Virus record (IMG/VR): IMGVR_UViG_3300044991_002130
Span: 10,406 to 74,405 of that record
Length of the DNA: 64,000 nucleotides
Direction: 5' to 3' (one strand)
DNA from: a virus
Taxonomy: Duplodnaviria; Caudoviricetes
Position numbers and translations under genes: made by a program. How positions within the stretch are numbered: position 1 is the stretch's first letter; the number at the start of each line of letters is the position of its first letter. This document shows, piece by piece, positions 7,572-21,565 of this stretch. Under the pieces are notes generated by a model. The model did not search any database, had not been told where the DNA came from, and saw only the letters and a list, made by a program, of their open reading frames with translations.

Positions 7572-7600
7572 TTGACAATTCATTTTTTTCCATACATAGT
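7572..7600 (+). promoter_or_regulatory. Sigma70-type promoter upstream of the leader ORF
   Basis: TTGACA-N17-CATAGT. Confidence 0.65.
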
Positions 7601-7633
7601 TCTATTTATTAAATAACAGTAATAACAAATTCA

Positions 7634-7765
7634 ATGAGACATTATTCAATCAAATCGCAATCCGTGACCTCCAAGTGGAGTGTGCGCTTTAATGCGACAC
7701 AACCTACACTCGGAGCCAATGAAGGCGACTTGTTGGGTGGTCCGGTTGAGGAAAAGATTTTCTAA
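7634..7765 (+). CDS. Putative attenuator leader peptide (43 aa; not in ORF track)
   Basis: MRHYSIKSQSVTSKWSVRFNATQPTLGANEGDLLGGPVEEKIF*; its 3' codons pair with the 5' arm of the downstream terminator. Confidence 0.65.
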   Translation: MRHYSIKSQSVTSKWSVRFNATQPTLGANEGDLLGGPVEEKIF

Positions 7766-7799
7766 ATAAAAATCAAATCCAAAACCTCCGGAACCACCC
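7735..7799 (+). promoter_or_regulatory. Antiterminator hairpin
   Basis: GGGTGG-TCCGG-ttg-AGG (7735-7751) complementary to CCT-CCGGA-a-CCACCC (7785-7799). Confidence 0.7.
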
Positions 7800-7822
7800 T
7801 CTAAAAAAGAAGGTGGTTTTTT
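7792..7822 (+). terminator. Intrinsic terminator (attenuator)
   Basis: AACCACC.TC-loop-GA.GGTGGTT followed by T-run. Confidence 0.8.
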
Positions 7823-8246
7823 AATTTTAGGGAAAGTAAGTAAGAAAAAGTTTGACAGAAGATAAAAAAGAGTCAAGGTGACAGAAGATAAGAAAAAGAA
7901 AGGGTAGCGAAAGAGAAAGTTAAAAAAAGTTCGAAAAGATAGTTGACAGCGAAAGATAAAAGAGTAAGATGGTCAGCGTTGTAGTAGCAAAGGCGAAACA
8001 ACAAAAAGTTTTTTCACAGTACAATTTTGACAGGTAAAAGCGCACCTAGAAAGCGTGCTAAAATAGCCACCGGCCCATTTAGGGACCGTTTTGTGGGAAT
8101 CAATATCAATAAGTTCAGGTAGGGTTGAGGTTAGAGTGAGTAACTTTATTGTGAGGCCGAAGTATAAGTTATTTTTAATAAAGTTGGAGAGATCAACAAT
8201 AAGATACGCAAGTAGCGTATTGAGTTGGCCTCTCCTAACAATTTCA

Positions 8247-8280
8247 AGTCGTTCTACTGACCGACTCTAAATAAATCAGT
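8247..8280 (+). ncRNA. Compact H-type pseudoknot, preQ1-I-like topology
   Basis: P1 AGTCG/CGACT, P2 ACTGA/TCAGT, TTC loop start, A-rich L3. Confidence 0.35.
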
Positions 8281-8285
8281 TATAT

Positions 8286-8364
8286 GGAAGTCAAGCTATT
8301 CGGGACGGGCACCTCCCTCTTAAGGAGAACATTCGTGTGGGTTCAACTCCCACGGCTTCCACCA
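8286..8364 (+). tRNA. tRNA-Lys(CTT), atypical (A at position 8)
   Basis: Cloverleaf, loop CTCTTAA, ACCA end. Confidence 0.8.
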
Positions 8365-8425
8365 TTTTTTCAAAATAATTGATGTTATGTGAGTATATAT
8401 TATATTTATTTTTACACATCAAATT

Positions 8426-8758
8426 ATGAACGACCATAAAGATTTACTTGGAGAATTTCTGTCCGGTGGATGGATTGTAGCAATAATCGGAGCAGCGGGT
8501 ATGATAGCAAGATTGCTGACCGACGATGTAAAGATTACACTGATGCAACAAGTTAAAAGAATACTTGCCGCATCAATATGTTCTGTCATTACATGGTTTT
8601 TATTAGAAAATGTAGATTTAAGTAGTCTGACTAAAGCCGTAACATACGGAGTAGTTGGAGTAATCAGTCCAGAAATTTTAGAAGGTTTGTCGAAGTTGGG
8701 AAAGAGTTTTGCAAAAAATCCTTTCAAATTCTTCAGGCGGACAAAAAAGATTGAGTAA
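8426..8758 (+). CDS. Small multi-TM membrane protein (holin-like)
   Basis: Three hydrophobic segments and a basic C-terminus. Confidence 0.55.
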   Translation: MNDHKDLLGEFLSGGWIVAIIGAAGMIARLLTDDVKITLMQQVKRILAASICSVITWFLLENVDLSSLTKAVTYGVVGVISPEILEGLSKLGKSFAKNPFKFFRRTKKIE

Positions 8759-8762
8759 TAGT

Positions 8763-8839
8763 GCGGGGTTGATGTTTAACGGTTAGCATACGAGTTTTCC
8801 AAACTTGATGTGGGGGTTCGAATCCCCCACCCCGCTCCA
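8763..8839 (+). tRNA. tRNA-Gly(TCC)
   Basis: Cloverleaf, loop TTTCCAA, TCCA. Confidence 0.9.
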
Positions 8840-8916
8840 ATTTGTACTAGGTTTGGTGTTCCAACCATTCCGAAGATATATAGCAAACACTAAATACGCA
8901 GTACAGCAAATTTTTT

Positions 8917-9002
8917 GGCTTATTATACCGCTAAGGACGCGGTTCGCACTGTAAATGCGAAGCCCTCGGGCTGGGTTGGTTCGATACCGACATAAGCCAC
9001 CA
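8917..9002 (+). tRNA. tRNA-Tyr(GTA)
   Basis: Loop CTGTAAA, long variable arm, ACCA. Confidence 0.85.
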
Positions 9003-9009
9003 TTTTTAT

Positions 9010-9085
9010 CCGCTTATAGCTCAATTGGCAGAGCACGCTCTTTATAGGGGCATGGTTGTGGGTTCAACTCCTACTGGGCGGACCA
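9010..9085 (+). tRNA. tRNA-Ile(TAT)
   Basis: Loop TTTATAG, ACCA. Confidence 0.8.
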
Positions 9086-9096
9086 ATTTATAATAC

Positions 9097-9184
9097 GGAA
9101 AGTTGGCAGAGTGGTCTAATGCAGGACTTTGCTAAAGTCCCGATCCGAAAGGGTCCATAGGTTCGAATCCTATATTTTCCGCCA
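9097..9184 (+). tRNA. tRNA-Ser(GCT)
   Basis: Loop TTGCTAA, long variable arm, GCCA. Confidence 0.9.
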
Positions 9185-9249
9185 AATTTAGATTCTTGCA
9201 AGACGGTGTTCCTTTGAATTGCAATTCAATCGAAGTGACCGCAGCTGAA

Positions 9250-9333
9250 GTCAGTGGTGAATGATATAATGGCATTATTTCTCCCATAAAGGAGAATATC
9301 TGGGTTCGACTCCCAGTTTACCGAAAAGCTGAC
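9250..9333 (+). ncRNA. tRNA-like body inside an extended stem, no CCA
   Basis: D loop, TCTCC-CATAAA-GGAGA arm with 6-nt loop, CTGGG-TTCGACT-CCCAG T arm, acceptor extended by GTCAG/CTGAC. Confidence 0.55.
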
Positions 9334-9350
9334 ATGAGGCAAAACTTTAC

Positions 9351-9425
9351 GCCGAATAAACATAAATGGTAATGTGCTAGTCTTGTAAACTAGATAAGCG
9401 GGTTCGATTCCCGCATTTGGCTCCA
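9351..9425 (+). tRNA. tRNA-Thr(TGT)
   Basis: Loop CTTGTAA, TCCA; A8. Confidence 0.85.
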
Positions 9426-9510
9426 ATTTGTAGGTCGCAATATTCTGAATTATAATTCAGCGAAGATATTCCAATTATTGCGTTAGTGGAATTCGCCTAT
9501 AACAATTTAT

Positions 9511-9586
9511 GCCGTGTGACATAGCTGGTTGTGATGACTCCTCTGCAAAAGGATGGAGATTGGTTCGATTCCAATACGCGGCTCCA
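9511..9586 (+). tRNA. tRNA-Cys(GCA), atypical D arm
   Basis: Loop CTGCAAA, U73, CCA. Confidence 0.8.
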
Positions 9587-9594
9587 ATTTATAT

Positions 9595-9668
9595 GCGGGA
9601 TTAGTTTAGTGGTAGAATGTGACATTGCCAATGTCGATACGGGAGTTCGATTCTCCCATCCCGCACCA
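9595..9668 (+). tRNA. tRNA-Gly(GCC)
   Basis: Loop TTGCCAA, ACCA. Confidence 0.9.
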
Positions 9669-9670
9669 CT

Positions 9671-9796
9671 TTGACAGGATGGAATGGGCGTCGTATAGTT
9701 GGTAAATCAACTTGCAGTCCAACGTGAACCAACCCAGCAGCAACGAAGCGTGAGAAAAGTTGAGTTCTCATGTGAAGCTAGTAGAAGTTCTGTCAA
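9671..9796 (+). ncRNA. Unknown structured RNA
   Basis: Terminal stem TTGACAGGA/TTCTGTCAA between tRNAs. Confidence 0.45.
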
Positions 9797-9805
9797 TAAT
9801 TTTAT

Positions 9806-9883
9806 GGCCATGTGACGTAACTGGATAAACGTGTTAGTTTTAGAAACTAAATTCTGTGGGTTCGAGTCCCACCTTGGCTACCA
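9806..9883 (+). tRNA. tRNA-Leu(TAG), short variable loop
   Basis: Loop TTTAGAA, ACCA; no class II arm. Confidence 0.85.
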
Positions 9884-9968
9884 TTTTAGGTCGAAACAAT
9901 GAGTTGCATAAATTCAATGAAACGGTTGGTTAATAACCAACAGCCACTTTTCTTGGCGCGACTTTTAA

Positions 9969-10092
9969 TTTTGATAGTGTATGTGTTTTCGTCTCTAAAA
10001 TCTTACGGCACATGGAAGACGTGTAACGGGTTCAAAGTCCGACCACTTTGCATTGAGCAGAGTGAGTAAGCCAACCATATACATTATCAAAA
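9969..10092 (+). ncRNA. Unknown structured RNA
   Basis: Long terminal stem TTTTGATAGTGTATGT/ATATACATTATCAAAA; internal CGGGTTCAAAGTCCG T-loop-like hairpin. Confidence 0.55.
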
Positions 10093-10099
10093 AATTTAT

Positions 10100-10175
10100 G
10101 GGAGTTTGGTGAAGGCGGTCCTCACGTCGCACTGAAGATGCGAAGAAGTTGGTTCAATTCCAACAGCTCCCACCA
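10100..10175 (+). tRNA. tRNA-Phe(GAA)
   Basis: Loop CTGAAGA, ACCA. Confidence 0.85.
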
Positions 10176-10181
10176 TTTTAT

Positions 10182-10255
10182 TGAGATATGTTGTAGTGGT
10201 AGCAACGGAGTCTTTGAAACTCTTAGTCTTGGTTCGATTCCAAGTATCTCAGCCA
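10182..10255 (+). tRNA. tRNA-Gln(TTG), copy 1
   Basis: Loop CTTTGAA, U1-A72, GCCA. Confidence 0.9.
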
Positions 10256-10398
10256 GTTTGAGAAACCTATACCAATAGGTGTATAAGCCGAACGGCCCGA
10301 GAGGGATGGACGTGAGCTATAGCATGGATGTGTAATCGAAAGAGTATCCACCAAGACTTGTTCTTGGCGCAAAAATCCATTGTGACAACACCTCAAAC
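10256..10398 (+). ncRNA. Unknown structured RNA
   Basis: Terminal stem GTTTGAG/CTCAAAC with several internal hairpins. Confidence 0.45.
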
Positions 10399-10404
10399 AT
10401 TTAT

Positions 10405-10480
10405 CGGAGTGTGGTGACAAAGGTTGTCGATTCGTTTTGGAAACGAAATTATGCAGGTTCGAGTCCTGTCACTCCGACCA
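10405..10480 (+). tRNA. tRNA-Pro(TGG), atypical D arm
   Basis: Loop TTTGGAA, C1-G72, ACCA. Confidence 0.8.
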
Positions 10481-10487
10481 CTTTTAT

Positions 10488-10561
10488 TGAGATATGTTGT
10501 AGTGGTAGCAACGGAGTCTTTGAAACTCTTAGTCTTGGTTCGATTCCAAGTATCTCAGCCA
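10488..10561 (+). tRNA. tRNA-Gln(TTG), copy 2 (identical)
   Basis: Exact duplicate of 10182-10255. Confidence 0.9.
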
Positions 10562-10568
10562 TTTTTAT

Positions 10569-10643
10569 TGCGATATAGTGTTAAGGTAGCACAGCCCGAC
10601 TGTTAATCGGGAAGTGATGGTTCAAGTCCATCTTTCGCAGCCA
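10569..10643 (+). tRNA. tRNA-Asn(GTT)
   Basis: Loop CTGTTAA, GCCA. Confidence 0.85.
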
Positions 10644-10808
10644 TTTTATTATACAACAACTGCGGAGATAGTAATTCCAAAAAAGTTGTTACTGTATGAG
10701 TAGAAGATATCGTGAATTAATTACTATGTCACGTGAAGCGAAAAATATAGGATAATATAAAGGTGAAGCCTCATCTTGAATGGGTTAAATTCCCAAAGGC
10801 ATTTTTAT

Positions 10809-10886
10809 TCTCATCGGGCTGGCATGGTGTTAAGCACGTGACTGTTAATCACGATAAGCGTGGATCGTTACCACGGGTGGGAGCCA
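10809..10886 (+). tRNA. tRNA-Asn(GTT), atypical (T loop ATCGTTA)
   Basis: Loop CTGTTAA, GCCA. Confidence 0.75.
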
Positions 10887-10888
10887 AT

Positions 10889-11009
10889 TTAATGTAGCTG
10901 AGAACGGATGCAAGCGGTATACCGAAACGCCGAAAGGTTGACCTTGGAAACAAGCGGTATGTGTCGATACAAAAGTATCATAACAGAGTGGAACTCACAC
11001 TCTCATTAA
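10889..11009 (+). ncRNA. Unknown structured RNA
   Basis: TTAATG/CATTAA closure with GNRA-capped hairpins. Confidence 0.35.
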
Positions 11010-11020
11010 AAATTTTATAT

Positions 11021-11099
11021 GGAACTAAAGCCACAGTGGACGGGCAGCGGTCTTTTAAACCGTTAATTCGTGTGGGTTCAACTCCCACTGGTTCCACCA
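11021..11099 (+). tRNA. tRNA-Lys(TTT), atypical (A8)
   Basis: Loop CTTTTAA, ACCA; same body style as 8286. Confidence 0.8.
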
Positions 11100-11159
11100 T
11101 TTTGTTAGCTTTTTTGTACATATGAGTTATATTTATAGAAATACCACCATTATTTACAT

Positions 11160-11585
11160 ATGAAAAAAAGCGAACTTAAAGATATTATAGCCGAATGCGT
11201 TACCGAAGTCATTCAAGAACAAGGTTTACCAGAAGGTTGGGGACAAGACATGTTGAAAGGTTTGAAGAAGACCTTCACGGGCGATGGTCCAGACAGTGGA
11301 GCAGCACATTATGATAGAAATGCAAAAATGCACAATAAACGCGTGGATTACAGTAAAGCATCTATCGGAGATAAGTCTAAGATGCGGGCCGGAGCAAGAA
11401 AAACGGTAGAGGCTTCGAAACAAGAATTTGAAACTAAGTTAAAAGAAATGCTGCGCAGTGCATTCGTAGAAGCCGAATCAGTCGGAATGAAGCGCGAAGA
11501 CGTAACAAAAGCATTTCGTTCCGCAATCACGAGTATTTTTAACAAATATAAAAGACTCGAAGAGATAGCAGAAGAACAACAATAA
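11160..11585 (+). CDS. Hypothetical protein with MKKSELK leader (putative packaged head protein)
   Basis: N-terminal motif shared with 18174 and 26102; TATTTAT motif upstream. Confidence 0.7.
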   Translation: MKKSELKDIIAECVTEVIQEQGLPEGWGQDMLKGLKKTFTGDGPDSGAAHYDRNAKMHNKRVDYSKASIGDKSKMRAGARKTVEASKQEFETKLKEMLRSAFVEAESVGMKREDVTKAFRSAITSIFNKYKRLEEIAEEQQ

Positions 11586-11737
11586 TTTTTAGGTGATGTG
11601 TGAGGTTTCACTGACTCACACTTAGTCGAGAAGCTCGATAACCTTTTGGGTGTGAGGGGCGACTATCGTGTCGCCGACATCTTTGGTCCCCACCAATTTG
11701 TCGCAATGGGGCAATACCTCACACATATAATTTATAT

Positions 11738-11820
11738 AGCAGAGACAAGCCAAGGGACGCTGAGTGCGCTCATAACGCATCCGAAAGGTATGATGGATTC
11801 GATTTCCATCTCTGCTACCA
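11738..11820 (+). tRNA. tRNA-CAT (Met or Ile2), atypical, with variable hairpin
   Basis: Loop CTCATAA, CCGAAAGG variable arm, ACCA. Confidence 0.7.
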
Positions 11821-11909
11821 ATTTCGTATTCGTGTTTCGGACCAAAAGAATATAGAGTGACATACGACTCTTTCAATTGGAAAAATCAGAGCACCCAATT
11901 TATTTTTAT

Positions 11910-11985
11910 CAGTGTGTGGTGCAAGAGGTTGGCGATTCCGCTTGGAACGGAAATTATGTAGGTTCGAGTCCTATCACACTGACCA
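11910..11985 (+). tRNA. tRNA-Pro(TGG), atypical D arm
   Basis: Loop CTTGGAA, ACCA; paralog of 10405. Confidence 0.8.
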
Positions 11986-12050
11986 ATTTTTAACATACAC
12001 AGTAGTCCTCTTGATTTATATCAATGTCAATAATGGCTGTGTGAAACTTT

Positions 12051-12127
12051 GGAGTGGGAGCTTATGAAGCACAAGCAATAGATTGTCAATCTATAGAAAG
12101 TCGGTGCAAATCCGATGCACTCCGCCA
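12051..12127 (+). tRNA. tRNA-Asp(GTC), atypical
   Basis: Loop TTGTCAA, T loop TGCAAAT, no GG in D loop, GCCA. Confidence 0.7.
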
Positions 12128-12161
12128 ATTTTACGATTTGAATATGGACGCATATTCATTC

Positions 12162-12240
12162 GTCGCGTCTGATTCAAGGTGACTGGCAGTCCTTGTGGCT
12201 GGGTTCTAGACTAAGTTGTTTCGACTACAACGGCGCGACA
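12162..12240 (+). ncRNA. tRNA-like RNA with 8-bp acceptor stem, no CCA
   Basis: GTCGCGTC/GGCGCGAC, T arm GTTGT-TTCGACT-ACAAC; anticodon unclear. Confidence 0.5.
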
Positions 12241-12254
12241 TATTTAAATTTTAT

Positions 12255-12330
12255 GGTGTTATAGTGTAAAGGTCGCACTGGCTGATTGTCAATCAGCAAG
12301 ACGGGGTTCGAGTTCCCCGTAACACCGCCA
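12255..12330 (+). tRNA. tRNA-Asp(GTC)
   Basis: Loop TTGTCAA, GCCA. Confidence 0.85.
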
Positions 12331-12371
12331 CTTTGAGTCGCAATATGGAAACATATATGCCGATTTTATAT

Positions 12372-12447
12372 GCGCACGTCGTCCAACTGGATAGGACATC
12401 AGATTACGAATCTGAGAATTAGGGTTCGAATCCCTACGAGCGCACCA
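12372..12447 (+). tRNA. tRNA-Arg(ACG)
   Basis: Loop TTACGAA, ACCA. Confidence 0.9.
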
Positions 12448-12453
12448 TTTTAT

Positions 12454-12530
12454 GGAGACGCTGGCAAAGTAGAGCCGACCTCGCTTCGAACGAGTTATAA
12501 CTATAGGTTAGAGTCCTATCGCCTCCACCA
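12454..12530 (+). tRNA. tRNA-Arg(TCG), atypical
   Basis: Loop CTTCGAA, T loop TTAGAGT, ACCA. Confidence 0.7.
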
Positions 12531-12533
12531 ATT

Positions 12534-12691
12534 TTTGAGCGGCAGCGTGGAAGGACATACAGCCTTGAGAAGTTCTATTACGCACAGTATAGTGTACATA
12601 AAGCTGTGCCTCTGAAACGAAGCGATGACTACCTAATAGATCGGGTCAGATTCAATGTCATCAATAGGTATCAATTCCTATCCGACTCAAA
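12534..12691 (+). ncRNA. RNA with a tRNA-elbow-like frame and about 100-nt insert
   Basis: TTGAG.CGG/CCG.CTCAA closure, D-like GCGTGGAAGGAC, T-like ATAGG-TATCAATT-CCTAT. Confidence 0.5.
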
Positions 12692-12695
12692 TTAA

Positions 12696-12903
12696 TTTTG
12701 AATAGCAGCTCGGAGTGTAGAAAAGTTTTTCCCTTTTCGGTACGAGCATGGGGTTAAACCATCAGCGGAAAAATAAGCAACGAAAAGCCTCTAAGTTCAT
12801 AACAATATGTTAAATGGGAAAATAATAACATGTTGGAATTTATGCGCAAACAGGAAACTCGCTATAGTGTAGATATATAAAGCAAAACTACATCTATTCA
12901 AAA
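12696..12903 (+). ncRNA. Unknown structured RNA (about 210 nt)
   Basis: TTTTGAATAG/CTATTCAAAA terminal stem. Confidence 0.5.
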
Positions 12904-12908
12904 ATTTT

Positions 12909-12999
12909 TGGATATGTTGCGGAACGTCTAGACAATTAACGCAAAGCTAGTCAAAGAGAATTAACATTCTTGATTGTAAGTTCAAATCTTACCTATCCA
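12909..12999 (+). pseudogene. Degenerate tRNA-like element
   Basis: TGGATA/TATCCA closure and T arm GTAAG-TTCAAAT-CTTAC only. Confidence 0.35.
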
Positions 13000-13201
13000 A
13001 ATTTTTTAATTTACAGAGAGTTAAGGGTACAGCCATTGGAATATCGCAGTGGGTTCATGTAGCGTAATAAGCACTCTTGACCAAACACTTTCTAATATTT
13101 GGACAGAAGTCTAGTTGTTTGTAAAACAGGAGTCGGTGTAATCATATTGATGTTTTTCAACAGGCAACCGTGCGCGGAATAATCGGGTGCTGTTCATTTT
13201 T

Positions 13202-13277
13202 GGCCCTATAGAATAATGGTTGAGTTCGCCTGCCTTTCAAGCAGGAGAGCCGGGATCGTGACCCGGTGGGGCTACCA
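13202..13277 (+). tRNA. tRNA-Glu(TTC)
   Basis: Loop CTTTCAA, T loop ATCGTGA, ACCA. Confidence 0.85.
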
Positions 13278-13278
13278 A

Positions 13279-13405
13279 TTTGTCATCATTGAGGGCAGAA
13301 ATATGAAATAGCAGTGGTGTAATGGTAGCACAGGGACAGCAAATCTTGCGATATGGTTCGATTCCATGCAGTGAAAAATAAGTCTGAGCGACCTGAAATG
13401 ACAAA
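13279..13405 (+). ncRNA. RNA carrying D/anticodon/T arms without an acceptor stem
   Basis: TTTGTCAT/ATGACAAA closure; GTGTAATGGTAGCAC D arm; TATGG-TTCGATT-CCATG T arm. Confidence 0.55.
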
Positions 13406-13407
13406 AA

Positions 13408-13680
13408 TTTTTGTTGAGGAGGTTGGTCTAGAGGCAGCAATCCTATAATGAGTAGAGTCCGTACTCCAAGCTAGTAAAAGTGCAGCGATGAATTCTCGAA
13501 TTCTGCATTTCCCATTACCAACTATAATGGTTCGCGTGGAGGCAATTCAGACGCGAACCGATAAGAACTACGGAATTGACCTTAGCTCGGTGCCGAAAAT
13601 GTAAGCGCAAATATAGTTGTTATATATTTGGCCGCGAAACGGTGTTAGCTCTTTTGGCGTAATAGCACACTCTTCAAAAA
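13408..13680 (+). ncRNA. 23S rRNA L11-binding (H43/H44) mimic split by about 200-nt insert
   Basis: AGGAGGTTGGTCTAGAGGCAGCAATCCTATAATGAGT ... GCGTAATAGCACACT matches 23S about 1054-1105. Confidence 0.75.
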
Positions 13681-13689
13681 TATTTAAAT

Positions 13690-13768
13690 GGCGATATCGT
13701 CTATGTTTGGAAAGGACAGGATATTCTCAATATTCAAAGGTCGGTTCGACTCCCGACTATCGCCACCA
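13690..13768 (+). tRNA. tRNA-Glu(CTC)
   Basis: Loop TTCTCAA, ACCA. Confidence 0.8.
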
Positions 13769-13770
13769 TT

Positions 13771-15129
13771 TTATGTTTTCCATTTACGAATTAAGTTTTT
13801 CAACTTGATTCTGTGCTCGCGGATTTTTTGCTTACTGCGCAATCTGATATAATTAGCAACTTCCTCCGCGCCACCAAAAGTTAACATTTCAACTATATCG
13901 TTAATATCTTTTGGAATAAATTTTTCTTGGGTCTGTGGGTCGGCGAACATGTATGTTTGATTTGAAGAATTTCGATATGCTTGATATTTTTTCATCGCAT
14001 TCCCTAACACACTTTCTAGATTGAAATCGGATAATCTCACCAAGTTTTCGTAACTAGAATCGTCCAATACACCGCGAACAATATTTGACATTGGTTTGCC
14101 GTAAGTTTTAATATTCACAACGTGTGTTATAGCGTTGGTGATTTGGTCGAGATAATCTCCGTCGTAACTTTTCAAGAACTTGGTCAAATCTTTAGAGAGG
14201 AATACACCATTGTCTCTTCCATGATGAAAGATGCACCACCACGCTAAGTTTTTTCCCAGCGCATCGTAATCTTCGGTTCCTAGATATTCTTCTAGGTCGT
14301 CCTCTATACGACCGTCGTCTAGGATGTTATAATGTTCTGCTATTAGCGTAGACAGTTTAGGAACAAACTCGTCGCCATGATCTTTTACCCACTCTTCGTT
14401 TTTCTTTTCTTCCACTTCTTGCTGTCTGTCTGAAATATTGCTTTCATCGTCATCAAGGTATTCCGTTAATTTTTCCATTGCTTCTTCCGGCAATATTTCT
14501 GATAAATATTCCCCCGGTCTAGACATGGTATGGTCCTGAGAATTATACAATGTCCAATCACGACTGTTCGCCCCGGACGGAGAGAGCAACGCCAATCGAG
14601 CCATTGGTTTTTCAGATTCTCGGTCATGTATAAGAATTACGGTGTTTTCAGAGTAGTAATCCTGCCAATAATCTTCGCTGCTTGAAATACACCAGTTGGT
14701 TTTTCCGGCTGCAAAATTTCCAACTGCATCTTGTGAGCGCGGACCGACAATTAAAAATCTGTCATCTTCGTAAATCAGTTCGGTGTCTGCGGCTAATTTT
14801 TCTCTGTTGCTAAGTTTCTTCGCGGCTTCGTCGGTGGCTCGGACAAACTCTTCATAAGTTTTGTACTTGTTGATGTCAATGCTTGATAGCTTGTTGAAGT
14901 GCACCTTAATTCTCTGTAACAAATCATTAGCGAACACTTTGTTTTCAATTTTGTCGGATACGGTGACGATCTTTCCAAGCCAGTCGAGATACTTCTTGTT
15001 GGCGGTAAAGTCGCCATCTATAAGTAAGTTCTGCATCCATAATGGGAGGTTTACGTATTTCTCTTGAAAGTCAGAAACTCGACTTTCCAGCAATAAATAT
15101 GGCAATAAAGATGATAATTTGATGTGCAT
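13771..15129 (-). CDS. Hypothetical protein with IKL..LL leader (putative head protein)
   Basis: 452 aa; MHIKLSSLL..LLE start; KTNWCISS motif. Confidence 0.75.
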   Translation of the reverse strand: MHIKLSSLLPYLLLESRVSDFQEKYVNLPLWMQNLLIDGDFTANKKYLDWLGKIVTVSDKIENKVFANDLLQRIKVHFNKLSSIDINKYKTYEEFVRATDEAAKKLSNREKLAADTELIYEDDRFLIVGPRSQDAVGNFAAGKTNWCISSSEDYWQDYYSENTVILIHDRESEKPMARLALLSPSGANSRDWTLYNSQDHTMSRPGEYLSEILPEEAMEKLTEYLDDDESNISDRQQEVEEKKNEEWVKDHGDEFVPKLSTLIAEHYNILDDGRIEDDLEEYLGTEDYDALGKNLAWWCIFHHGRDNGVFLSKDLTKFLKSYDGDYLDQITNAITHVVNIKTYGKPMSNIVRGVLDDSSYENLVRLSDFNLESVLGNAMKKYQAYRNSSNQTYMFADPQTQEKFIPKDINDIVEMLTFGGAEEVANYIRLRSKQKIREHRIKLKNLIRKWKT

Positions 15130-15193
15130 TAGTAATTATAAATATAATGCAGTGATTATAATAAACGATTTTACAGAATTTGATTTATAATAT

Positions 15194-15268
15194 GGTGTGG
15201 TAGAACAATGGTAGTTCAACGTCTTGATAAGGCGAAGGTTGTGGGTTCGACTCCCACCCGCACCACCA
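15194..15268 (+). tRNA. tRNA-Ile(GAT)
   Basis: Loop TTGATAA, ACCA. Confidence 0.9.
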
Positions 15269-15272
15269 ATTT

Positions 15273-15348
15273 GAAGAAGTAGCTCAGAGAAAGAGCGCCG
15301 GTGTTTCAACGTCTGTGAGGTCGGTGGTTCAAGTCCACCCTTCTTCGA
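15273..15348 (+). pseudogene. tRNA-like gene with enlarged anticodon arm, no CCA
   Basis: GAAGAAG/CTTCTTC acceptor, D and T arms intact; 20-nt anticodon region containing TTTCAA. Confidence 0.55.
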
Positions 15349-15356
15349 TATTTTAT

Positions 15357-15433
15357 GGGGTCGCATGTACTAAGGATAGCGACGGATACTTGCAATATCT
15401 GTGATGTGAGTTCGATTCTCACCGATTCCACCA
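15357..15433 (+). tRNA. tRNA-Ala(TGC), atypical D arm
   Basis: G3-U70, loop CTTGCAA, ACCA. Confidence 0.8.
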
Positions 15434-15435
15434 AT

Positions 15436-16998
15436 TTAACTTGGATCATATCCAAACTCATGAAGACTATCGCCTGTAGTAAATAAATGCATAGCCGAAA
15501 CAGTCTTTGTTAAGATTTTATAATCTCCCATAAGAGTATTTCTGCCGTGACTAATAGCGTATCTTTTATTTATTGTCACCCAATCACCGGGATTGATTTT
15601 TAAACCTTTCAATTTCTTCGATTTGAGCGCGTCCATCTCAGCAAACAATTTTTCAAGCAAAGCGTCTTTGTTATATTTTAACTCGGGATATAAATCGGAA
15701 TATTTACTGCCTACTGGTAAAAATCCAAATTTCATGATGTACCCGGCAACGGTTGATATATCTTTAATTTTATTATCCGTGTCTTTGTTTAAGTTTGGTA
15801 CTGCCCTGTATATTCTAACTTGCTTGTTGGGGTTTCCTCTTGCACTTTGTATTATAGATACGGTCTCAGCATCACTGTATTCAGTTGATCGATCCCCATA
15901 ATATTGTTCGGCCTTCGATGAATAAACATCGTCTGGATAAATTTTTGTTAAATCGTGCAATGGTGCTCCGCCATCTTTATCTGGCGCACGGTGTTGACCT
16001 TTATAATCTTCTTGTTCAGACAATTTTAATTGGTCACGCTGGTCGTTTGATATAGCGTTTTTACTTTTTAGTTTATCAAAGAACAACTTCACTCTTGGGT
16101 CGGATGATAATAAACTATCGGATGCTGCCTCTTCCATCCAGTGTTCTAATAAAGTTGTCAAATCCTCGCGGTTGACGGCGTTGTTAATCAAAATATTTTT
16201 GTCTTTTATATCACCCTTAAATCTCATTGGAACATTTGATCCCACTTTTTTATATCCAATTTTTTCTAATTGATTGGATATTTTTTCCGGAACTGCAAAA
16301 ATAGCCGGTGTGGATGAGTGTAGCAAATCCAATAGCATATCTATACCAGTTTTACCAGTCTCGGGTGCAAAATGCGAAACGGCAAATGTATCACCGATGA
16401 ATTGACCAACGAGATAATCTTTGGAGTTATATGGATTATAAATAGTCCCATGTCCGCTTTGTAAATGTGAAATTAAATCGGTAGGATTTATACCTGCACG
16501 AACCGCGTATTTTTCGTAGTTATCTTGAATAGTATGTGCTTCTTCTTCACCTGTAACATCTCTAAAATTTGAAGATAGCCGAGTATCGGATTGCGGCAAC
16601 TTAGTTACTGTATATGCCTCAGATACCTTACTTGTATTTATTTTTTCCGATTTTATTATTTTTATTTGCCGTGGAGAAAATACAAAACAGTCAAATTGAC
16701 CATCAGCGTCTTTGAGGATTACTCCATCAAATCCATTACCTTTAATCTGACCAAGACCAAGCTTGTCGTATTCATCCCACCCAGCAGGATTATTAATGGT
16801 GACTTCGGCAGTAATTAGGTAACCTTTACCTTGTGCACCCGCTTCGTTTGACAATATTTTGTTTTTATCAGACGTAAACCATATAATACCTTGAGTAGTT
16901 TTTTTCAAGTCAAACTTTTTAAATTTTGAACCTGTTCCATGATACACAGTCAATGGTTTCGACTGAATCTCGTTAAGTAAATCTTTTAATTTAATCAT
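15436..16998 (-). CDS. Multi-domain protein with two ADP-ribosyltransferase-like domains and MIKLKDLL leader
   Basis: N-terminal VYHGT...FD...GIIWFT; C-terminal IYRAVP...INPGDWVT...YA..HG. Confidence 0.6.
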   Translation of the reverse strand: MIKLKDLLNEIQSKPLTVYHGTGSKFKKFDLKKTTQGIIWFTSDKNKILSNEAGAQGKGYLITAEVTINNPAGWDEYDKLGLGQIKGNGFDGVILKDADGQFDCFVFSPRQIKIIKSEKINTSKVSEAYTVTKLPQSDTRLSSNFRDVTGEEEAHTIQDNYEKYAVRAGINPTDLISHLQSGHGTIYNPYNSKDYLVGQFIGDTFAVSHFAPETGKTGIDMLLDLLHSSTPAIFAVPEKISNQLEKIGYKKVGSNVPMRFKGDIKDKNILINNAVNREDLTTLLEHWMEEAASDSLLSSDPRVKLFFDKLKSKNAISNDQRDQLKLSEQEDYKGQHRAPDKDGGAPLHDLTKIYPDDVYSSKAEQYYGDRSTEYSDAETVSIIQSARGNPNKQVRIYRAVPNLNKDTDNKIKDISTVAGYIMKFGFLPVGSKYSDLYPELKYNKDALLEKLFAEMDALKSKKLKGLKINPGDWVTINKRYAISHGRNTLMGDYKILTKTVSAMHLFTTGDSLHEFGYDPS

Positions 16999-17004
16999 GA
17001 TATA

Positions 17005-17550
17005 TTATTCTTCGTAAGTTATATCAAATTGTCGATTTTGGTCCACTACTTCATCGAGCTTGCCGGACAGTGTTGGTTGGAGACTTGCTGATAATTTCTT
17101 TTTTAGGCCATCTTTTAAAGCTAACAGATGTTTGCAAAGTCCCGGACGATTTTCCGGATTTAACATATCTGCTGGCATTCCATTAGATTTATTCAAACTA
17201 TTGAATCCTAATGGACTTGCTCCTTTTTTATTGTTAGCGTATGCCCAACGAAATTTATAATCTGGACATCCACAATCAACTTCGCACATGAGTCTATCTG
17301 GGCGAGTAACTTCTTTAGATTTTGGAAATGTAATTCTACCTTTCCAAGATTTACCCGTGGTGTTATTATCTGGCGCACTTCTAAAAGAGAAATTCCAGTA
17401 TCTTTCATCTCTGTTAGACAGAACGGGCAATGTTTGTACTTTCATATTCTTCGCTCGGTTCTTTCTGGACGGCGTGGACGAATTGAATAATTGGTAAAAA
17501 CTCATTCTCTCGGTCAATAGGCTGCGAGCAAGGTTTGCTAGTGAAATCAT
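17005..17550 (-). CDS. SWIM zinc-finger protein
   Basis: CGCPDY.FRW...GLCKHL. Confidence 0.75.
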   Translation of the reverse strand: MISLANLARSLLTERMSFYQLFNSSTPSRKNRAKNMKVQTLPVLSNRDERYWNFSFRSAPDNNTTGKSWKGRITFPKSKEVTRPDRLMCEVDCGCPDYKFRWAYANNKKGASPLGFNSLNKSNGMPADMLNPENRPGLCKHLLALKDGLKKKLSASLQPTLSGKLDEVVDQNRQFDITYEE

Positions 17551-17592
17551 ATGTATAAATATAGGTTAGATGTTATAAAATGTAAAGATAAC

Positions 17593-17668
17593 GGGGAAAT
17601 AGCTCAATTGGTAGAGCACCGCATTTGCAATGCGAAGGTTGTGGGTTCGAGCCCCATTTTCTCCACCA
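17593..17668 (+). tRNA. tRNA-Ala(TGC), canonical
   Basis: G3-U70, loop TTTGCAA, ACCA. Confidence 0.92.
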
Positions 17669-17696
17669 TTTATAGTAAACAGTATGCGTGCTTATT

Positions 17697-18014
17697 ATGC
17701 AAAACATATACTATAATCCAAAAGAATGCGGTTTAGAAATTGTCGATGTACTTGACGACCCTCAAGACTACGCGTTTAATACTCTATTGATAGTTCGGGC
17801 GACCGACACCAATCGAGTGTATTACGCAGCAAGTGCGGGGTGTTCTTGTCCCGTCCCGTTCGAAGAATATCATTATGCTTCGGCTGATGATAACGATTTG
17901 AACGAGGTGACATATGAGACGTTAGACAGCTTCATTAATGTAGTGAATAATTTTCCTGTTTCCATTGATGAAAGAAAAGATGCTATCCGCAAGGTTGAAG
18001 CACTATTAAAGTAA
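17697..18014 (+). CDS. Hypothetical protein
   Basis: YYAASAGCSCPVPFE motif. Confidence 0.65.
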   Translation: MQNIYYNPKECGLEIVDVLDDPQDYAFNTLLIVRATDTNRVYYAASAGCSCPVPFEEYHYASADDNDLNEVTYETLDSFINVVNNFPVSIDERKDAIRKVEALLK

Positions 18015-18045
18015 ACATCGGAGTCGAGGGAGAAATCCCTTTTTT

Positions 18046-18121
18046 GGTCTTATAGCTCAATCGGTAGAGCAGGAAGCTTTTAACTTCTTGGTTCGGGGTT
18101 CGAGTCCCCGTGGGACCACCA
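18046..18121 (+). tRNA. tRNA-Lys(TTT), canonical
   Basis: Loop CTTTTAA, ACCA. Confidence 0.92.
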
Positions 18122-18173
18122 TTTACATTAAATATAATAAGTAAATTTAAAATTGAAGTATATATTTATATTT

Positions 18174-18635
18174 ATGAAAAAATCCGAATTAAAATCTTTG
18201 ATAAAAGAAGTAATACAAGAAATCGAGCTTAACCCTGAATATAGTGTGAATTCAGACGAACAGGTAAGAATTGCAATAAGACGCAGTTATAAACCCTTCC
18301 CAAAAGCGAAATTTTCCTCCCCCAACGAGGAATTATTTCAAAAATATCTTCGAGCCGCACAAGCTTGGGCTGCTCAAAATTTAGCGGATTCGAAAAACGG
18401 TGCATTGTTATCAAAGCAAGGAAAATTACACACGAGAATAAGACCAGACGCTAAAGATAGTGACCTAGTTTTACGGTTTGACGACGGATATGAAAATTTT
18501 GATGAGTTTCTATTAGACTACGACCAAAAACAAATAAGTCAGCATGAATATATATGGATTTCGCCGCGACATATTGCAAAATACGTAATGGGAGAAGTGG
18601 CGGACAGAATCGTAATTCCGGGAGAAACAAAATAA
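18174..18635 (+). CDS. Hypothetical protein with MKKSELK leader
   Basis: MKKSELKSLIKEVIQE. Confidence 0.7.
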   Translation: MKKSELKSLIKEVIQEIELNPEYSVNSDEQVRIAIRRSYKPFPKAKFSSPNEELFQKYLRAAQAWAAQNLADSKNGALLSKQGKLHTRIRPDAKDSDLVLRFDDGYENFDEFLLDYDQKQISQHEYIWISPRHIAKYVMGEVADRIVIPGETK

Positions 18636-18646
18636 TAAAATTTTAT

Positions 18647-18722
18647 GCTGGGGTAGCATAGTGGCTAATGCAGCGCGTTTACATCGCGCCTATCGGGGGT
18701 TCGAGTCCCTTCTCCAGTACCA
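18647..18722 (+). tRNA. tRNA-Val(TAC)
   Basis: Loop TTTACAT, ACCA. Confidence 0.9.
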
Positions 18723-18859
18723 ATTTCAATATAAAAAACCAGTATAGCCCAAAGATAATTCAGCGGTCTGGGGTGATGCATCACTTGTCTGTTTGGGATA
18801 TTGAAACTAATTTAATGTGATGAGCCCTAGTTTTTGTATTTGGTATATATTTATATTAC

Positions 18860-19249
18860 ATGATAAAATTGAAAGACTTGATCGGAACACCGTTTGCAGT
18901 GTTTGTTTTAGCCAAAGCAAATGGTGGATATGCTGCTACAACTCGTGCAGCTGATCGCAATGAGCAAGGAAGAATTGGATTGCCCGGTGGAAAAGTTGAT
19001 ATTGGCGAATCGCCAGTTGAAGCAGTAACAAGAGAAGCTAAAGAAGAAGGATGGGAAGTAAAAGTAACAAACACAACACCCATACACACACAATTGGTTG
19101 ATGGAAAACTTGTGCATTGGTATGCTGGAGAATCTGCCATAAAATTGAATAATTTCAAAGAAAAGGGAAGAATAACTCCCATAGTTGCAACTCGTGAACA
19201 GATTTTATCTTCTGGTTATGGAAATGAAAATCTGTACAATCATATATAA
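18860..19249 (+). CDS. Nudix hydrolase with MIKLKDL leader
   Basis: GGKVDIGESPVEAVTREAKEEG Nudix box. Confidence 0.9.
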   Translation: MIKLKDLIGTPFAVFVLAKANGGYAATTRAADRNEQGRIGLPGGKVDIGESPVEAVTREAKEEGWEVKVTNTTPIHTQLVDGKLVHWYAGESAIKLNNFKEKGRITPIVATREQILSSGYGNENLYNHI

Positions 19250-19650
19250 TTTAGCAGTTACGACGTTCTGAAACAAACGATCCAGCCTACTGTTCCGCTG
19301 TAACCCGAGCAGTTGCATTTTTGGTAAACGTGAAAAGAAATAGTAAAGAATAGAACACGAGTCATCGTACTTGTGTCACACTAGGCTATCCATCTAGCTC
19401 CTTAATAGGAATAAATTTACAACCATCTTCTTTCAGTATAACAAGTGCTCAAAACTTGTTCGTTCATATGTTTTCGTAAAAGCATATCAACAGAAGCAGT
19501 GGATTGGTTCAATCGTTAGTTCTTTTGCGTAAAAAGACAATATTTGTCACTCAATGCCTCTTAACAATGCACAATTTTAAGTGAGTTTTACGGCAGTTAC
19601 AGGGGTAGCCCCTTGGGTGGGAGGCGCACACCAAATCACGCCTATTCTAT
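19250..19650 (+). ncRNA. Large (about 400 nt) ORF-free structured region
   Basis: Long-range pairs CTGTAAC/GTTACAG, AACGAT/ATCGTT and many hairpins. Confidence 0.45.
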
Positions 19651-19693
19651 TTTTATTGACATTGCATGATATTTATGTAGTGTTATAGTTTAT

Positions 19694-19769
19694 CGGAGTG
19701 TAGCGTAACTTGGTAGCGCACTCGCTTTGGGAGCGAGCGGTCCGGGTTCAAATCCCGGCACTCCGACCA
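19694..19769 (+). tRNA. tRNA-Pro(TGG), canonical
   Basis: Loop TTTGGGA, ACCA. Confidence 0.92.
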
Positions 19770-19775
19770 TTTTAT

Positions 19776-19851
19776 GGCGTTTATAGTGTAGTGGTTCGCA
19801 CGGAAGTTTGTGAAACTTTCAGGACGATTTCGAATATCGTTAGACGCCCCA
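19776..19851 (+). tRNA. tRNA-His(GTG)
   Basis: G-1:C73, loop TTGTGAA. Confidence 0.88.
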
Positions 19852-19852
19852 A

Positions 19853-19972
19853 TTTGTAAGTTTTATAAGATGTAGCCAATGCTTCCAAGCGAGGATCATG
19901 TGCTGTAAGTTCTTACCTGTCGCAATGGTGCAAAATAGAAACATCGAGCATTAGAGTTGGTAGCTTACAAAA
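19853..19972 (+). ncRNA. Unknown structured RNA
   Basis: TTTGTAAGTT/AGCTTACAAA closure. Confidence 0.45.
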
Positions 19973-19979
19973 ATTTTAT

Positions 19980-20065
19980 AGAGTGGTCGCATAATGGTAT
20001 TGCAGAAGTCTCCAAAACTTCCGTTTTAAAAAACATTGTCGGTTCGAGTCCGACCCACTCTGCCA
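19980..20065 (+). tRNA. tRNA-Trp(CCA) with long variable arm
   Basis: Loop CTCCAAA, GTTTT-AA-AAAAC variable arm, GCCA. Confidence 0.85.
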
Positions 20066-20073
20066 ATTTTTAC

Positions 20074-20149
20074 GCCAATGTAGTCTAAAGAATAGGCACC
20101 AGTTTCCTAAACTGTTTATATGTAGGTTTGAGTCCTATCATTGGCACCA
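20074..20149 (+). tRNA. tRNA-Arg(CCT)
   Basis: Loop TTCCTAA, ACCA. Confidence 0.8.
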
Positions 20150-20157
20150 ATTTATAT

Positions 20158-20248
20158 AGAAAGGTAGCCAAGTGGTTTACGGCACTACATTGGAAGTGTA
20201 GCGGGTTCTAAACAAGCCCCGCGAGTTCGAATCTCGCCCTTTCTGCCA
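20158..20248 (+). tRNA. tRNA-Ser(GGA)
   Basis: Loop TTGGAAG, long variable arm, GCCA. Confidence 0.88.
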
Positions 20249-20293
20249 TTTATATGTTGACACAAGACAAAAAATATCCAAGATAGAAACCAC

Positions 20294-21560: not shown

Positions 21561-21565
21561 TATAA

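What the first reader, a model, noticed from the sequence alone, without database searches (positions are those of the whole stretch)
7572..7822. Codon-sampling leader-peptide attenuator at the head of the phage tRNA/ncRNA array
Seen: a promoter (7572-7600), then a 43-codon ORF (7634-7765) missing from the ORF track that uses 19 of 20 amino acids (no Cys) and, by hand count, 34 different codons. Its 3' codons GGGTGGTCCGGttgAGG (7735-7751) pair with CCTCCGGAaCCACCC (7785-7799), which is the 5' arm of an intrinsic terminator (7792-7822), so the two hairpins are mutually exclusive. Downstream lies a dense block of tRNAs and ncRNAs. Established: trp/his-type attenuators use this geometry with runs of one codon, and the whiB7/wblC uORF senses general stalling. 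Inference: a ribosome that translates freely masks the antiterminator, so transcription stops. Stalling on almost any depleted or cleaved tRNA would allow read-through, switching on replacement tRNAs only when the host destroys its tRNA pool. I know of no description of this in phages.
Basis: partly seen in the sequence, partly recalled or inferred. Interest (0 to 1): 0.92.

Follow-up and report, generated by a model that had tools for sequence, protein, structure and literature searches.

The report
Leader-peptide attenuator heading phage tRNA array
A large uncultured lake phage puts a tiny translated "test" gene, which uses nearly every amino acid and ends inside a stop-or-go RNA switch, in front of its block of tRNA genes, so it probably makes more tRNA when ribosomes read slowly.

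Summary
The window has a promoter at 7572-7600, a 43-codon ORF at 7634-7765, an antiterminator at 7735-7799 and an intrinsic terminator at 7792-7822. These lie 464 bases upstream of 44 same-strand tRNA genes.

I found 23 further sequence variants of this module in related IMG/VR and metagenome contigs.
- The ATG and the reading frame are kept in all variants. All indels are multiples of three.
- In relatives the stop codon sits in the 5' strand of the antiterminator.
- In 24 of 24 variants the nascent RNA folds so that the terminator's 5' arm pairs with the end of the ORF.
- The window, L178 and L126 reach this pairing with different letters.
- Of 23 long variants, 22 encode 19 or 20 of the 20 amino acids in 37-43 codons. 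Single-copy residues (Tyr, His, Cys, Arg) sit at different positions in different lineages.

Best reading: a trp-type ribosome-mediated attenuator whose leader samples all amino acids.

Caveats:
- A second promoter-like site lies downstream of the terminator in 21 of 22 variants, so the attenuator is not the only gate.
- The link to host tRNA destruction is inference.
- Nothing was tested experimentally.

The scan's notes list similar unverified findings on other DNA. Five literature searches found no published case.

The parts
7572..7600 (+). Promoter P1: TTGACA (7572-7577), 17-nt spacer, CATAGT (7595-7600)
   Evidence: 10 of 12 consensus matches. TTGAC is invariant and CATAGT at least 90% conserved in the 21-variant alignment A1, while the upstream genes differ between variants.
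7603..7609 (+). TATTTAT motif shared with the start regions of many genes of this phage
   Evidence: Invariant in A1. The same motif lies 3-8 nt upstream of the ATG of many ORFs of the window. Phage genes lack Shine-Dalgarno sites (6 of 61).
7634..7765 (+). Leader ORF, 43 codons, 19 of 20 amino acids, 34 distinct codons
   Evidence: The frame is open in 21 of 21 variants, against 34 and 54 stops in the other two frames. Indels are in frame. Residues are kept through synonymous changes, including Ser AGC<->TCG.
7631..7658 (+). Region 1: predicted partner of region 2 in the full-length minimum-energy fold (anti-antiterminator)
   Evidence: Unconstrained folds. Predicted only. In relatives a different early-ORF stretch pairs with region 2.
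7651..7732 (+). Central hairpin inside the ORF
   Evidence: Present in all folds of the window and in the relatives' folds. Its role is unknown; it may be a pause hairpin (inference).
7735..7799 (+). Antiterminator element: 5' strand 7735-7752 (codons 34-40), apical hairpin 7756-7774, 3' strand 7778-7799
   Evidence: It forms when the terminator's 3' arm is withheld (-25.2 kcal/mol for 7729-7803). Duplex -23.3 kcal/mol, against -15.8 on average with the other variants' 3' strands; 7 of 500 shuffles reach the observed value.
7792..7822 (+). Intrinsic terminator: stem 7792-7802 / 7808-7818, loop AAAAA; T-run 7817-7822 (its first two T close the stem)
   Evidence: (-11.7 kcal/mol alone). It is one of only three strong + strand terminators between 1 and 34000.
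7943..7970 (+). Promoter-like site P2 downstream of the terminator (TTGACA, 16 nt, TAAGAT). A weaker TTGACA lies at 7852.
   Evidence: 10 of 12. An equivalent site is present in 21 of 22 variants and absent in L031/L036.
8026..8285 (+). Conserved structured RNA of unknown family, first product downstream of the attenuator and P2
   Evidence: RNAalifold on 8 variants gives 56 pairs, 31 with compensatory changes. No Rfam match.
8286..32652 (+). tRNA array (44 genes by ARAGORN up to 30002; one more Rfam match at 32576-32652) with interspersed ORFs
   Evidence: All are on the + strand and downstream of the leader.
33159..33190 (+). Next strong + strand intrinsic terminator, possible end of the unit
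   Evidence: Custom hairpin plus T-run scan, -24.0 kcal/mol.

Best explanation
This is a ribosome-mediated (leader-peptide) transcription attenuator at the head of the phage's tRNA region.

Transcription starts at P1. The leader ORF is translated from the extreme 5' end of the transcript. As RNA polymerase moves on, the last codons of the ORF (region 2) pair with the 5' arm of the terminator (region 3). This builds an antiterminator that is more stable than the terminator hairpin.

- If a ribosome has already reached the end of the ORF, it unwinds or blocks region 2. Region 3 then pairs with region 4 and transcription stops at 7822.
- If the ribosome is delayed anywhere in the ORF, the antiterminator persists. 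Polymerase reads through into the structured RNA (8026-8285) and the tRNA array.

The leader holds about one codon for nearly every amino acid. The delay could therefore come from a shortage of almost any charged tRNA. That would give negative feedback between translation capacity and expression of the phage's complete tRNA set.

Shown: the anatomy, its conservation, the signs of translation and the amino-acid coverage. Inferred: that ribosome position decides termination, that any codon can trigger read-through, and the physiological trigger. A second promoter (P2) probably gives attenuator-independent transcription.
For: **Conserved anatomy**
- There are 24 unique variants: the window, 20, and 3.
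- All have the promoter, an ATG, an ORF of 37-43 codons (one 23-codon deletion form), a terminator and a U-run.
- In the nascent-transcript fold, region 3 pairs with the ORF end in 24 of 24. In 5 of 24 the antiterminator is even the full-length minimum-energy fold.
- The antiterminator element is more stable than the terminator hairpin in 24 of 24 (window -25.2 against -11.7).

**Different letters, same pairing**
- Window: GGGUGGUCCGG with CCGGAACCACCC.
- Most relatives: GGGUGUGGCUU with AAGCCCCACCC.
- L178: GGGUGUGG with CCACACCC, and it has a different terminator stem (CCCGCC/GGCGGG).
- The window's region 2 binds its own region 3 at -23.3, against a mean of -15.8 for foreign ones. For L178 the figures are -24.1 against -18.1.

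**Signs of translation**
- 0 in-frame stops in 21 variants, against 34 and 54 in the other frames.
- Indels are 3, 3 and 45 nt.
- The stop alternates TAA/TAG at the same place.
- Ser3 switches AGC<->TCG. Phe, Ile, Ala, Pro and His columns vary only synonymously.
- The start context matches that of bona fide genes.

**Ribosome masking**
- Modelled ribosomes at codons 5-30 leave the antiterminator intact. At codons 35 and 38 they abolish it.

**Position**
- The upstream genes differ between variants, but the downstream RNA and array are constant.
- 5 of 5 related records hold the module.
- In a complete 297-kb relative it precedes 30 tRNAs.
- All tRNAs of this record lie downstream.

**Amino-acid coverage**
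- Of 23 long variants, 10 have 20 amino acids, 12 have 19 and 1 has 18.
- The background for 37-38 residues is a mean of 16, with P(20) = 0.004-0.006.
- Tyr is present exactly once in 23 of 23, at three different columns. His is present once in 23 of 23, at two columns. Cys is present once in 21 of 23, at two columns.
- In the column shuffle, 1 of 5000 trials reaches the observed mean coverage.
- Codon diversity has P < 0.05 in 16 of 21 variants.
Against: - A conserved promoter-like site lies downstream of the terminator in 21 of 22 variants. The array need not depend on read-through.
- Among close relatives the antiterminator core never varies. RNAalifold on the MAFFT alignment finds only 7 pairs, 1 of them compensatory. 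Covariation support therefore rests on a few lineages and on energy calculations. In about half of the 21 variants (the L005-type ones), the cognate duplex is no better than the mean non-cognate one.
- In the full-length fold the terminator form is favoured in 19 of 24 variants whatever the ribosome does. The switch must therefore be kinetic, and this is not shown.
- In the window the stop codon lies 14 nt beyond region 2. A ribosome at the stop blocks the antiterminator only sterically, and the simple masking model still draws the outer helix.
- The short L011-type leader (23 codons, 13 amino acids) shows that full coverage is dispensable in one lineage.
- The coverage statistics are post hoc and the variants are related. 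The conditional tests give P from 0.007 to 0.68.
- The window's own coverage is unremarkable (P = 0.11).
- Codon adaptation is ordinary.
- No expression data exist.
Confidence: 0.68

Rival explanations
1. The module is a stand-alone micro-gene or dual-function small RNA. P1, the small ORF and the terminator form a self-contained transcription unit. The peptide or the RNA is the product, and the array is transcribed from P2.
For: P2 is conserved in 21 of 22 variants. Several residues are kept at the amino-acid level through synonymous changes (Ser3, Phe20, Ile21, Ala22, Gln24, Pro25). The terminator is well formed.
Against: pN/pS between clade representatives is 0.43-1.2, which is far from a constrained protein. 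A structure that competes with the gene's own terminator, and is more stable than it, would be counter-productive for a simple gene, yet it is kept in 24 of 24 variants. In L031/L036 P2 is deleted while the leader and the downstream RNA remain. The module always travels with the downstream RNA and array, not with the upstream genes.
Confidence: 0.12
2. The module is an attenuator driven by a nascent-peptide arrest or pausing motif rather than by codon supply. The conserved Trp...Phe-Ile-Ala-Gln-Pro...Gly-Ala-x-Glu-Gly-Asp stretch stalls the ribosome in response to a specific signal (a small molecule, a factor, or the state of the tunnel). The stall position decides termination.
For: Trp16, Gln24, Pro25, Ala29, Gly32 and Gly37 are invariant in 23 of 23 variants. 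Phe20, Ile21, Ala22 and Pro25 are kept through synonymous codon changes. The N-terminal third of the peptide is free to vary.
Against: Part of this conservation is at the nucleotide level with no synonymous change (GGA GCC, GAA GGC GAT). It lies in the central hairpin, so RNA constraints may explain it. The L011 lineage deletes the whole motif and keeps the switch. I ran no test against known arrest peptides.
Confidence: 0.1
3. The module is an untranslated RNA switch that binds a ligand, protein or tRNA. The ORF is incidental.
For: The structure is strong (z = -4.7). There is no Shine-Dalgarno site before the ATG.
Against: The frame is kept open only in frame 0 (0, 34 and 54 stops). Indels are in frame. 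Ser switches AGC<->TCG. No gene of this phage uses a Shine-Dalgarno site (6 of 61). No Rfam family, including T-box, reached E <= 10 on 7560-8440.
Confidence: 0.05
4. The terminator simply ends the upstream RNA ligase operon (6166-7463), and the complementarity is chance.
For: No other + strand terminator lies between 6143 and 7817.
Against: The module keeps its own conserved promoter and occurs behind at least four unrelated upstream genes. The complementarity is kept with different letters in several lineages.
Confidence: 0.03

Closest known systems
Leader-peptide transcription attenuators of enterobacterial amino-acid operons (trp, his, leu, thr, ilvGMEDA, pheA leaders). Named from established knowledge. 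General theory: PMC1183508, seen only as a search listing and abstract start.
   Same: A promoter-proximal short ORF. Regions 1-4 with mutually exclusive 2:3 (antiterminator) and 3:4 (intrinsic terminator) pairing. The end of the ORF lies in or next to region 2, so a ribosome that finishes the leader favours termination.
   Different: The regulated genes are tRNAs and a structured RNA of a phage, not biosynthetic enzymes. There is no run of one regulatory codon; instead the leader has roughly one codon for each of 19-20 amino acids. There is no Shine-Dalgarno site. A second promoter follows the terminator.
Translation-stress or antibiotic-responsive leader attenuators: bmrB-bmrCD (PMC4191407), vmlR (PMC9226507), whiB7 uORF (10.1101/2023.06.02.543512), and toiL of topAI-yjhQ (PMC12121999). 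All four were seen only as search listings and abstract starts.
   Same: A short uORF whose slow translation, from many possible causes, switches on the downstream genes. The logic is 'general translation trouble leads to read-through'.
   Different: Those elements control resistance or stress genes of bacteria. None is reported for tRNA genes or in a phage. Amino-acid saturation of the leader is not a described feature of them (my knowledge, not checked in the texts).
T-box riboswitches (RF00230)
   Same: They sense tRNA charging and act through an antiterminator/terminator choice upstream of translation-related genes.
   Different: T-box elements bind tRNA directly and need no translation. 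No T-box match was found here, and a conserved translated ORF is present.

Membership tests
Ribosome-mediated (leader-peptide) transcription attenuator | Short ORF at the 5' end of the transcript, downstream of a promoter and upstream of the regulated genes | tested here: met
   P1 at 7572-7600 and the ORF at 7634-7765. Conserved in 24 variants. The array lies downstream.
Ribosome-mediated (leader-peptide) transcription attenuator | Intrinsic terminator whose 5' arm can alternatively pair with an upstream strand (mutually exclusive structures) | tested here: met
   (24 of 24 variants).
Ribosome-mediated (leader-peptide) transcription attenuator | The antiterminator's 5' strand overlaps or abuts the end of the ORF, so ribosome position selects the structure | tested here: met
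   In relatives the stop codon lies within the 5' strand. In the window codons 34-40 form it. Modelled ribosomes at codons 35 and 38 abolish the pairing, and ribosomes at codons 5-30 do not. This is geometry only.
Ribosome-mediated (leader-peptide) transcription attenuator | The ORF is translated | tested here: inconclusive
   Comparative signs are strong (in-frame indels), but there are no ribosome or peptide data. No RNA run is listed.
Ribosome-mediated (leader-peptide) transcription attenuator | Run or enrichment of regulatory codons cognate to the product of the regulated operon | tested here: not met
   No run of one codon. Instead 19-20 amino acids appear, mostly once each. This matches an array with tRNAs for all 20 amino acids, so the principle may hold in an extended form.
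Ribosome-mediated (leader-peptide) transcription attenuator | Read-through responds to ribosome stalling | not testable with these tools
   Needs reporter fusions, coupled in-vitro assays or Term-seq.
T-box riboswitch | Match to the T-box covariance model (stem I specifier and T-box antiterminator bulge) | tested here: not met
   No Rfam match to the leader at E <= 0.1 on 7000-31000, nor at E <= 10 on 7560-8440.
Nascent-peptide arrest leaders | Conserved C-terminal peptide motif that is required for stalling | not tested
   Conserved residues exist, but I made no comparison with known arrest peptides and no assay was possible.

The most novel reading that the evidence does not exclude
The leader is a universal sensor of charged-tRNA supply. 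It is a roughly 38-codon test message that selection keeps saturated with all 20 amino acids: single-copy residues are replaced elsewhere when lost. A stall at any codon class therefore opens transcription of a complete phage tRNA set plus an unknown structured RNA. This would be a virus-run homeostat of translation capacity, and the first attenuator known to control tRNA genes.
Probability: 0.4. Interest if true: 0.9.

Novelty: new variant of a known kind. Interest (0 to 1): 0.78.

Why it matters
How phages time and dose their own tRNA genes is largely unknown. Large tRNA arrays are usually discussed only in terms of codon usage or escape from host tRNA nucleases.

A leader-peptide attenuator in front of such an array would be a direct feedback loop from decoding speed to tRNA supply. 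It would extend trp-type attenuation from 'one amino acid, one pathway' to 'all amino acids, all tRNAs'.

It is testable with simple constructs. In a reconstituted translation system, each amino acid or tRNA can be left out in turn, and the prediction is read-through for each.

It also gives a search image for annotating phage genomes: a short ORF with near-complete amino-acid coverage that ends in an antiterminator.

Tried and rejected
- **Phage DNA search.** blastn of 7000-8400 against the phage collection gave no match.
- **First blastn against the relatives' loci.** It found only the promoter and the downstream RNA, not the ORF. The leader was found by eye and tblastn and later by pattern searches.
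- **Pattern GGAGCCNNTGAAGGCGA.** Of the 40 metagenome stretches from the longer pattern, most were unrelated GC-rich genes. I dropped every hit without the AT-rich promoter-ORF-terminator context before counting. L071 and L080 were chance matches.
- **Incomplete variants.** L180, L184 and L192 were cut by contig ends and were not counted.
- **RNAalifold on the MAFFT alignment of the nascent segments.** It recovered only the invariant core, because the window is misaligned. I therefore used per-sequence folds and duplex energies.
- **Codon adaptation.** The leaders have ordinary codon adaptation, at the 5th-76th percentile of the background. There is no sign of deliberate rare codons.
- **Matching leader codons to phage anticodons.** This is uninformative by inspection, because the phage has a near-complete tRNA set.
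- **Public sequencing runs.** No RNA holder is listed, and I laid no reads.
- **T-box and other Rfam families.** None matched.
- **Host assignment.** I left it open. The promoter-like sites are sigma-70-like, yet the genes lack Shine-Dalgarno sites and carry a TATATTTAT motif.
- **Scan notes by place and by sequence.** Nothing was returned.

Full report
**What is there**

The window is part of a 74-kb IMG/VR viral record estimated at 34% complete. The stretch 7560-7830 contains the following, in order.
- A sigma-70-like promoter: TTGACA 7572-7577, 17 nt, CATAGT 7595-7600.
- A TATTTAT motif at 7603-7609.
- An ATG ORF of 43 codons at 7634-7765.
- A terminator hairpin at 7792-7818 followed by a T-run that ends at 7822.

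The ORF's codons 34-40 (7735-7752) pair with 7778-7799. This overlaps the 5' arm of the terminator, so the two structures exclude each other. The region folds far better than shuffles do: z = -4.7, and 0 of 200 shuffles fold as well.

Downstream come:
- promoter-like sites at 7852 and 7943;
- a conserved structured RNA at 8026-8285;
- 44 tRNA genes on the same strand.

All 40 Rfam tRNA matches of the record lie downstream of the leader. Between positions 1 and 34000, the only strong + strand intrinsic terminators are at 6143, 7817 and 33185.

**Relatives**

The RNA ligase gene just upstream (Pfam RNA_ligase) led to 23 related loci at 74-82% protein identity. DNA patterns from the leader and from the downstream RNA gave more loci in viral and metagenome contigs. 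Searches of five related records found the module in 5 of 5.

After I dropped chance hits and truncated copies, there are 24 distinct variants of the module. The upstream gene differs between variants, with at least four unrelated C-termini. The downstream RNA, a small membrane-protein gene and the tRNAs stay the same. In a complete 297-kb relative the order is leader, structured RNA, small gene, then 30 tRNAs within 15.5 kb. The module therefore belongs to the array, not to the gene before it.

**Is the ORF translated?**

- The ATG is invariant.
- Frame 0 has no stop in 21 of 21 variants. The other two frames hold 34 and 54 stops.
- Length differences are 3, 3 and 45 nt.
- The stop codon alternates between TAA and TAG at one place.
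- Ser3 is encoded by AGC in 15 variants and TCG in 6. Phe20, Ile21, Ala22, Pro25 and His6 change mostly synonymously.
- The phage's genes do not use Shine-Dalgarno sites (6 of 61). Many carry the same TATATTTAT-type motif a few bases before the ATG. The leader's start therefore looks like a normal start in this genome.
- Overall pN/pS is 0.43-1.2. That fits a translated sequence whose product is not a constrained protein.

I have no direct expression data.

**Is the switch conserved?**

I folded each transcript up to the terminator loop, which is what exists before the 3' arm is made. Region 3 pairs with the ORF end in 24 of 24 variants. In 5 of 24 this is also the full-length minimum-energy fold. 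The antiterminator element is more stable than the terminator hairpin in all 24.

In relatives the stop codon lies inside the 5' strand (GGGUGUGGCUUAA).

The letters differ between lineages while the pairing stays:
- window: GGGUGGUCCGG with CCGGAACCACCC;
- most relatives: GGGUGUGGCUU with AAGCCCCACCC;
- L178: GGGUGUGG with CCACACCC, next to a different terminator stem;
- L126: a bulged version.

Own-partner duplexes beat foreign ones for the window (-23.3 against -15.8) and for L178 (-24.1 against -18.1). They do not do so among the near-identical L005-type relatives.

A MAFFT/RNAalifold run recovers only seven invariant core pairs. Formal covariation is therefore thin, and it rests on three or four lineages.

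**Model of action**

With the 3' arm withheld, modelled ribosomes at codons 5-30 leave the antiterminator intact. Ribosomes at codons 35 and 38 remove it.

In the full-length RNA the terminator form, plus a pairing of region 2 with early ORF sequence (region 1), is thermodynamically best in 19 of 24 variants. This is the classical four-region layout, and any regulation must be kinetic.

In the window the ORF runs five codons past region 2. A terminating ribosome would then block the helix sterically rather than by covering it, which is a weaker geometry than in the relatives.

**Amino-acid sampling**

- The window's 19 of 20 amino acids is not unusual for 43 residues (P = 0.11). Its 34 distinct codons are unusual (P = 0.01).
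- The family is more telling. Of 23 long variants, 10 hold all 20 amino acids in 37-38 codons, 12 hold 19 and 1 holds 18. The background mean is 16, with P(20) = 0.004-0.006.
- Tyr occurs exactly once in every long variant, but at three alignment columns. His occurs once in each, at two columns. Cys occurs once in 21 of 23, at two columns. Arg occurs at seven columns.
- Shuffling residues within columns reaches the observed mean coverage in 1 of 5000 trials. This control ignores relatedness.
- I also replaced the differing positions between lineages with random residues. Coverage then falls 0.2-2.8 residues below the observed value, with P from 0.007 to 0.68.
- The 23-codon L011-type leader has only 13 amino acids, so full coverage is not indispensable.

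I take pan-amino-acid sampling as a supported lead, not as shown.

- A promoter-like site lies between the terminator and the array in 21 of 22 variants. Only L031/L036 lack it. The attenuator would then tune one of two inputs rather than act as the sole switch.
- Nothing here ties it to host tRNA destruction. The nearby RNA ligase is compatible with tRNA repair, but it is not evidence for that link.

**Comparison and novelty**

The element meets the structural definition of a leader-peptide attenuator, but it has no run of one regulatory codon. It works like the general translation-stress leaders of bacteria.

Rfam has no family for it. Five full-text searches found no paper that joins phage tRNA genes or tRNA arrays with leader peptides, attenuators, antiterminators or uORFs. 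I saw only listings and abstract starts, and supplements and non-open papers were not searched.

The scan's own notes list 18 similar, unverified findings on other genomes. I reached my reading before seeing them and did not test them.

**Verdict**

This is a real, conserved, very probably translated leader attenuator at the head of a phage tRNA region. It is a new variant of a known mechanism, with an unusual all-amino-acid leader.

Noticed in passing
window 8026-8285 (+); also L005:5562-5835, L152:8745-9015, L178:2222-2500 and others: A conserved structured RNA of about 260-280 nt with no Rfam family lies between the attenuator/P2 and the first tRNA. RNAalifold on 8 variants gives 56 pairs, 31 with compensatory changes. 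In L154/L193 its 5' half is replaced by other sequence.
   Followed up: partly
window-wide, e.g. 8403, 18848, 20661, 21769, 26088, 28316, 42811, 56070: Genes of this phage lack Shine-Dalgarno sites (6 of 61 starts). Many have TATATTTAT 3-8 nt upstream of the ATG. This suggests near-leaderless mRNAs or a special -10/-7 promoter element, and it bears on the unknown host.
   Followed up: partly
window 6187-7212 (+): An RNA ligase (PF09414 plus the PHA02142 OB-fold domain) lies directly upstream of the leader. Next to a tRNA array this may be a tRNA-repair function. In relatives other genes are inserted between the ligase and the leader.
   Followed up: partly
window 15272-15348 and 9255-9324 (+): A tRNA with anticodon TCA, called SeC by ARAGORN, is a possible opal suppressor. 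A second tRNA-like gene has an aberrant anticodon loop.
   Followed up: no
window 7852-7970 (+): There are three tandem copies of a TTGACAG/GTGACAG-AAGATAA-like unit between the terminator and the structured RNA. Relatives have a single TTGACA...TAGAGT site there.
   Followed up: partly
window 15436-16998 (-) and 24078-26012 (+): ORFs inside the tRNA region match Pfam families: an ADP-ribosyltransferase of polyvalent proteins (ART-PolyVal), and a TPS secretion domain with DUF5649 repeats.
   Followed up: no
L011:5241-5895 (and L012-L014): In one lineage a Gly/Pro-rich gene with its own copy of the TTGAC promoter is inserted before the leader. In that lineage the leader is cut down in frame to 23 codons.
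   Followed up: partly
window 33159-33190 (+): A very strong intrinsic terminator (-24 kcal/mol) lies just after the last tRNA match (32576-32652). It is a possible end of one long tRNA transcription unit.
   Followed up: no
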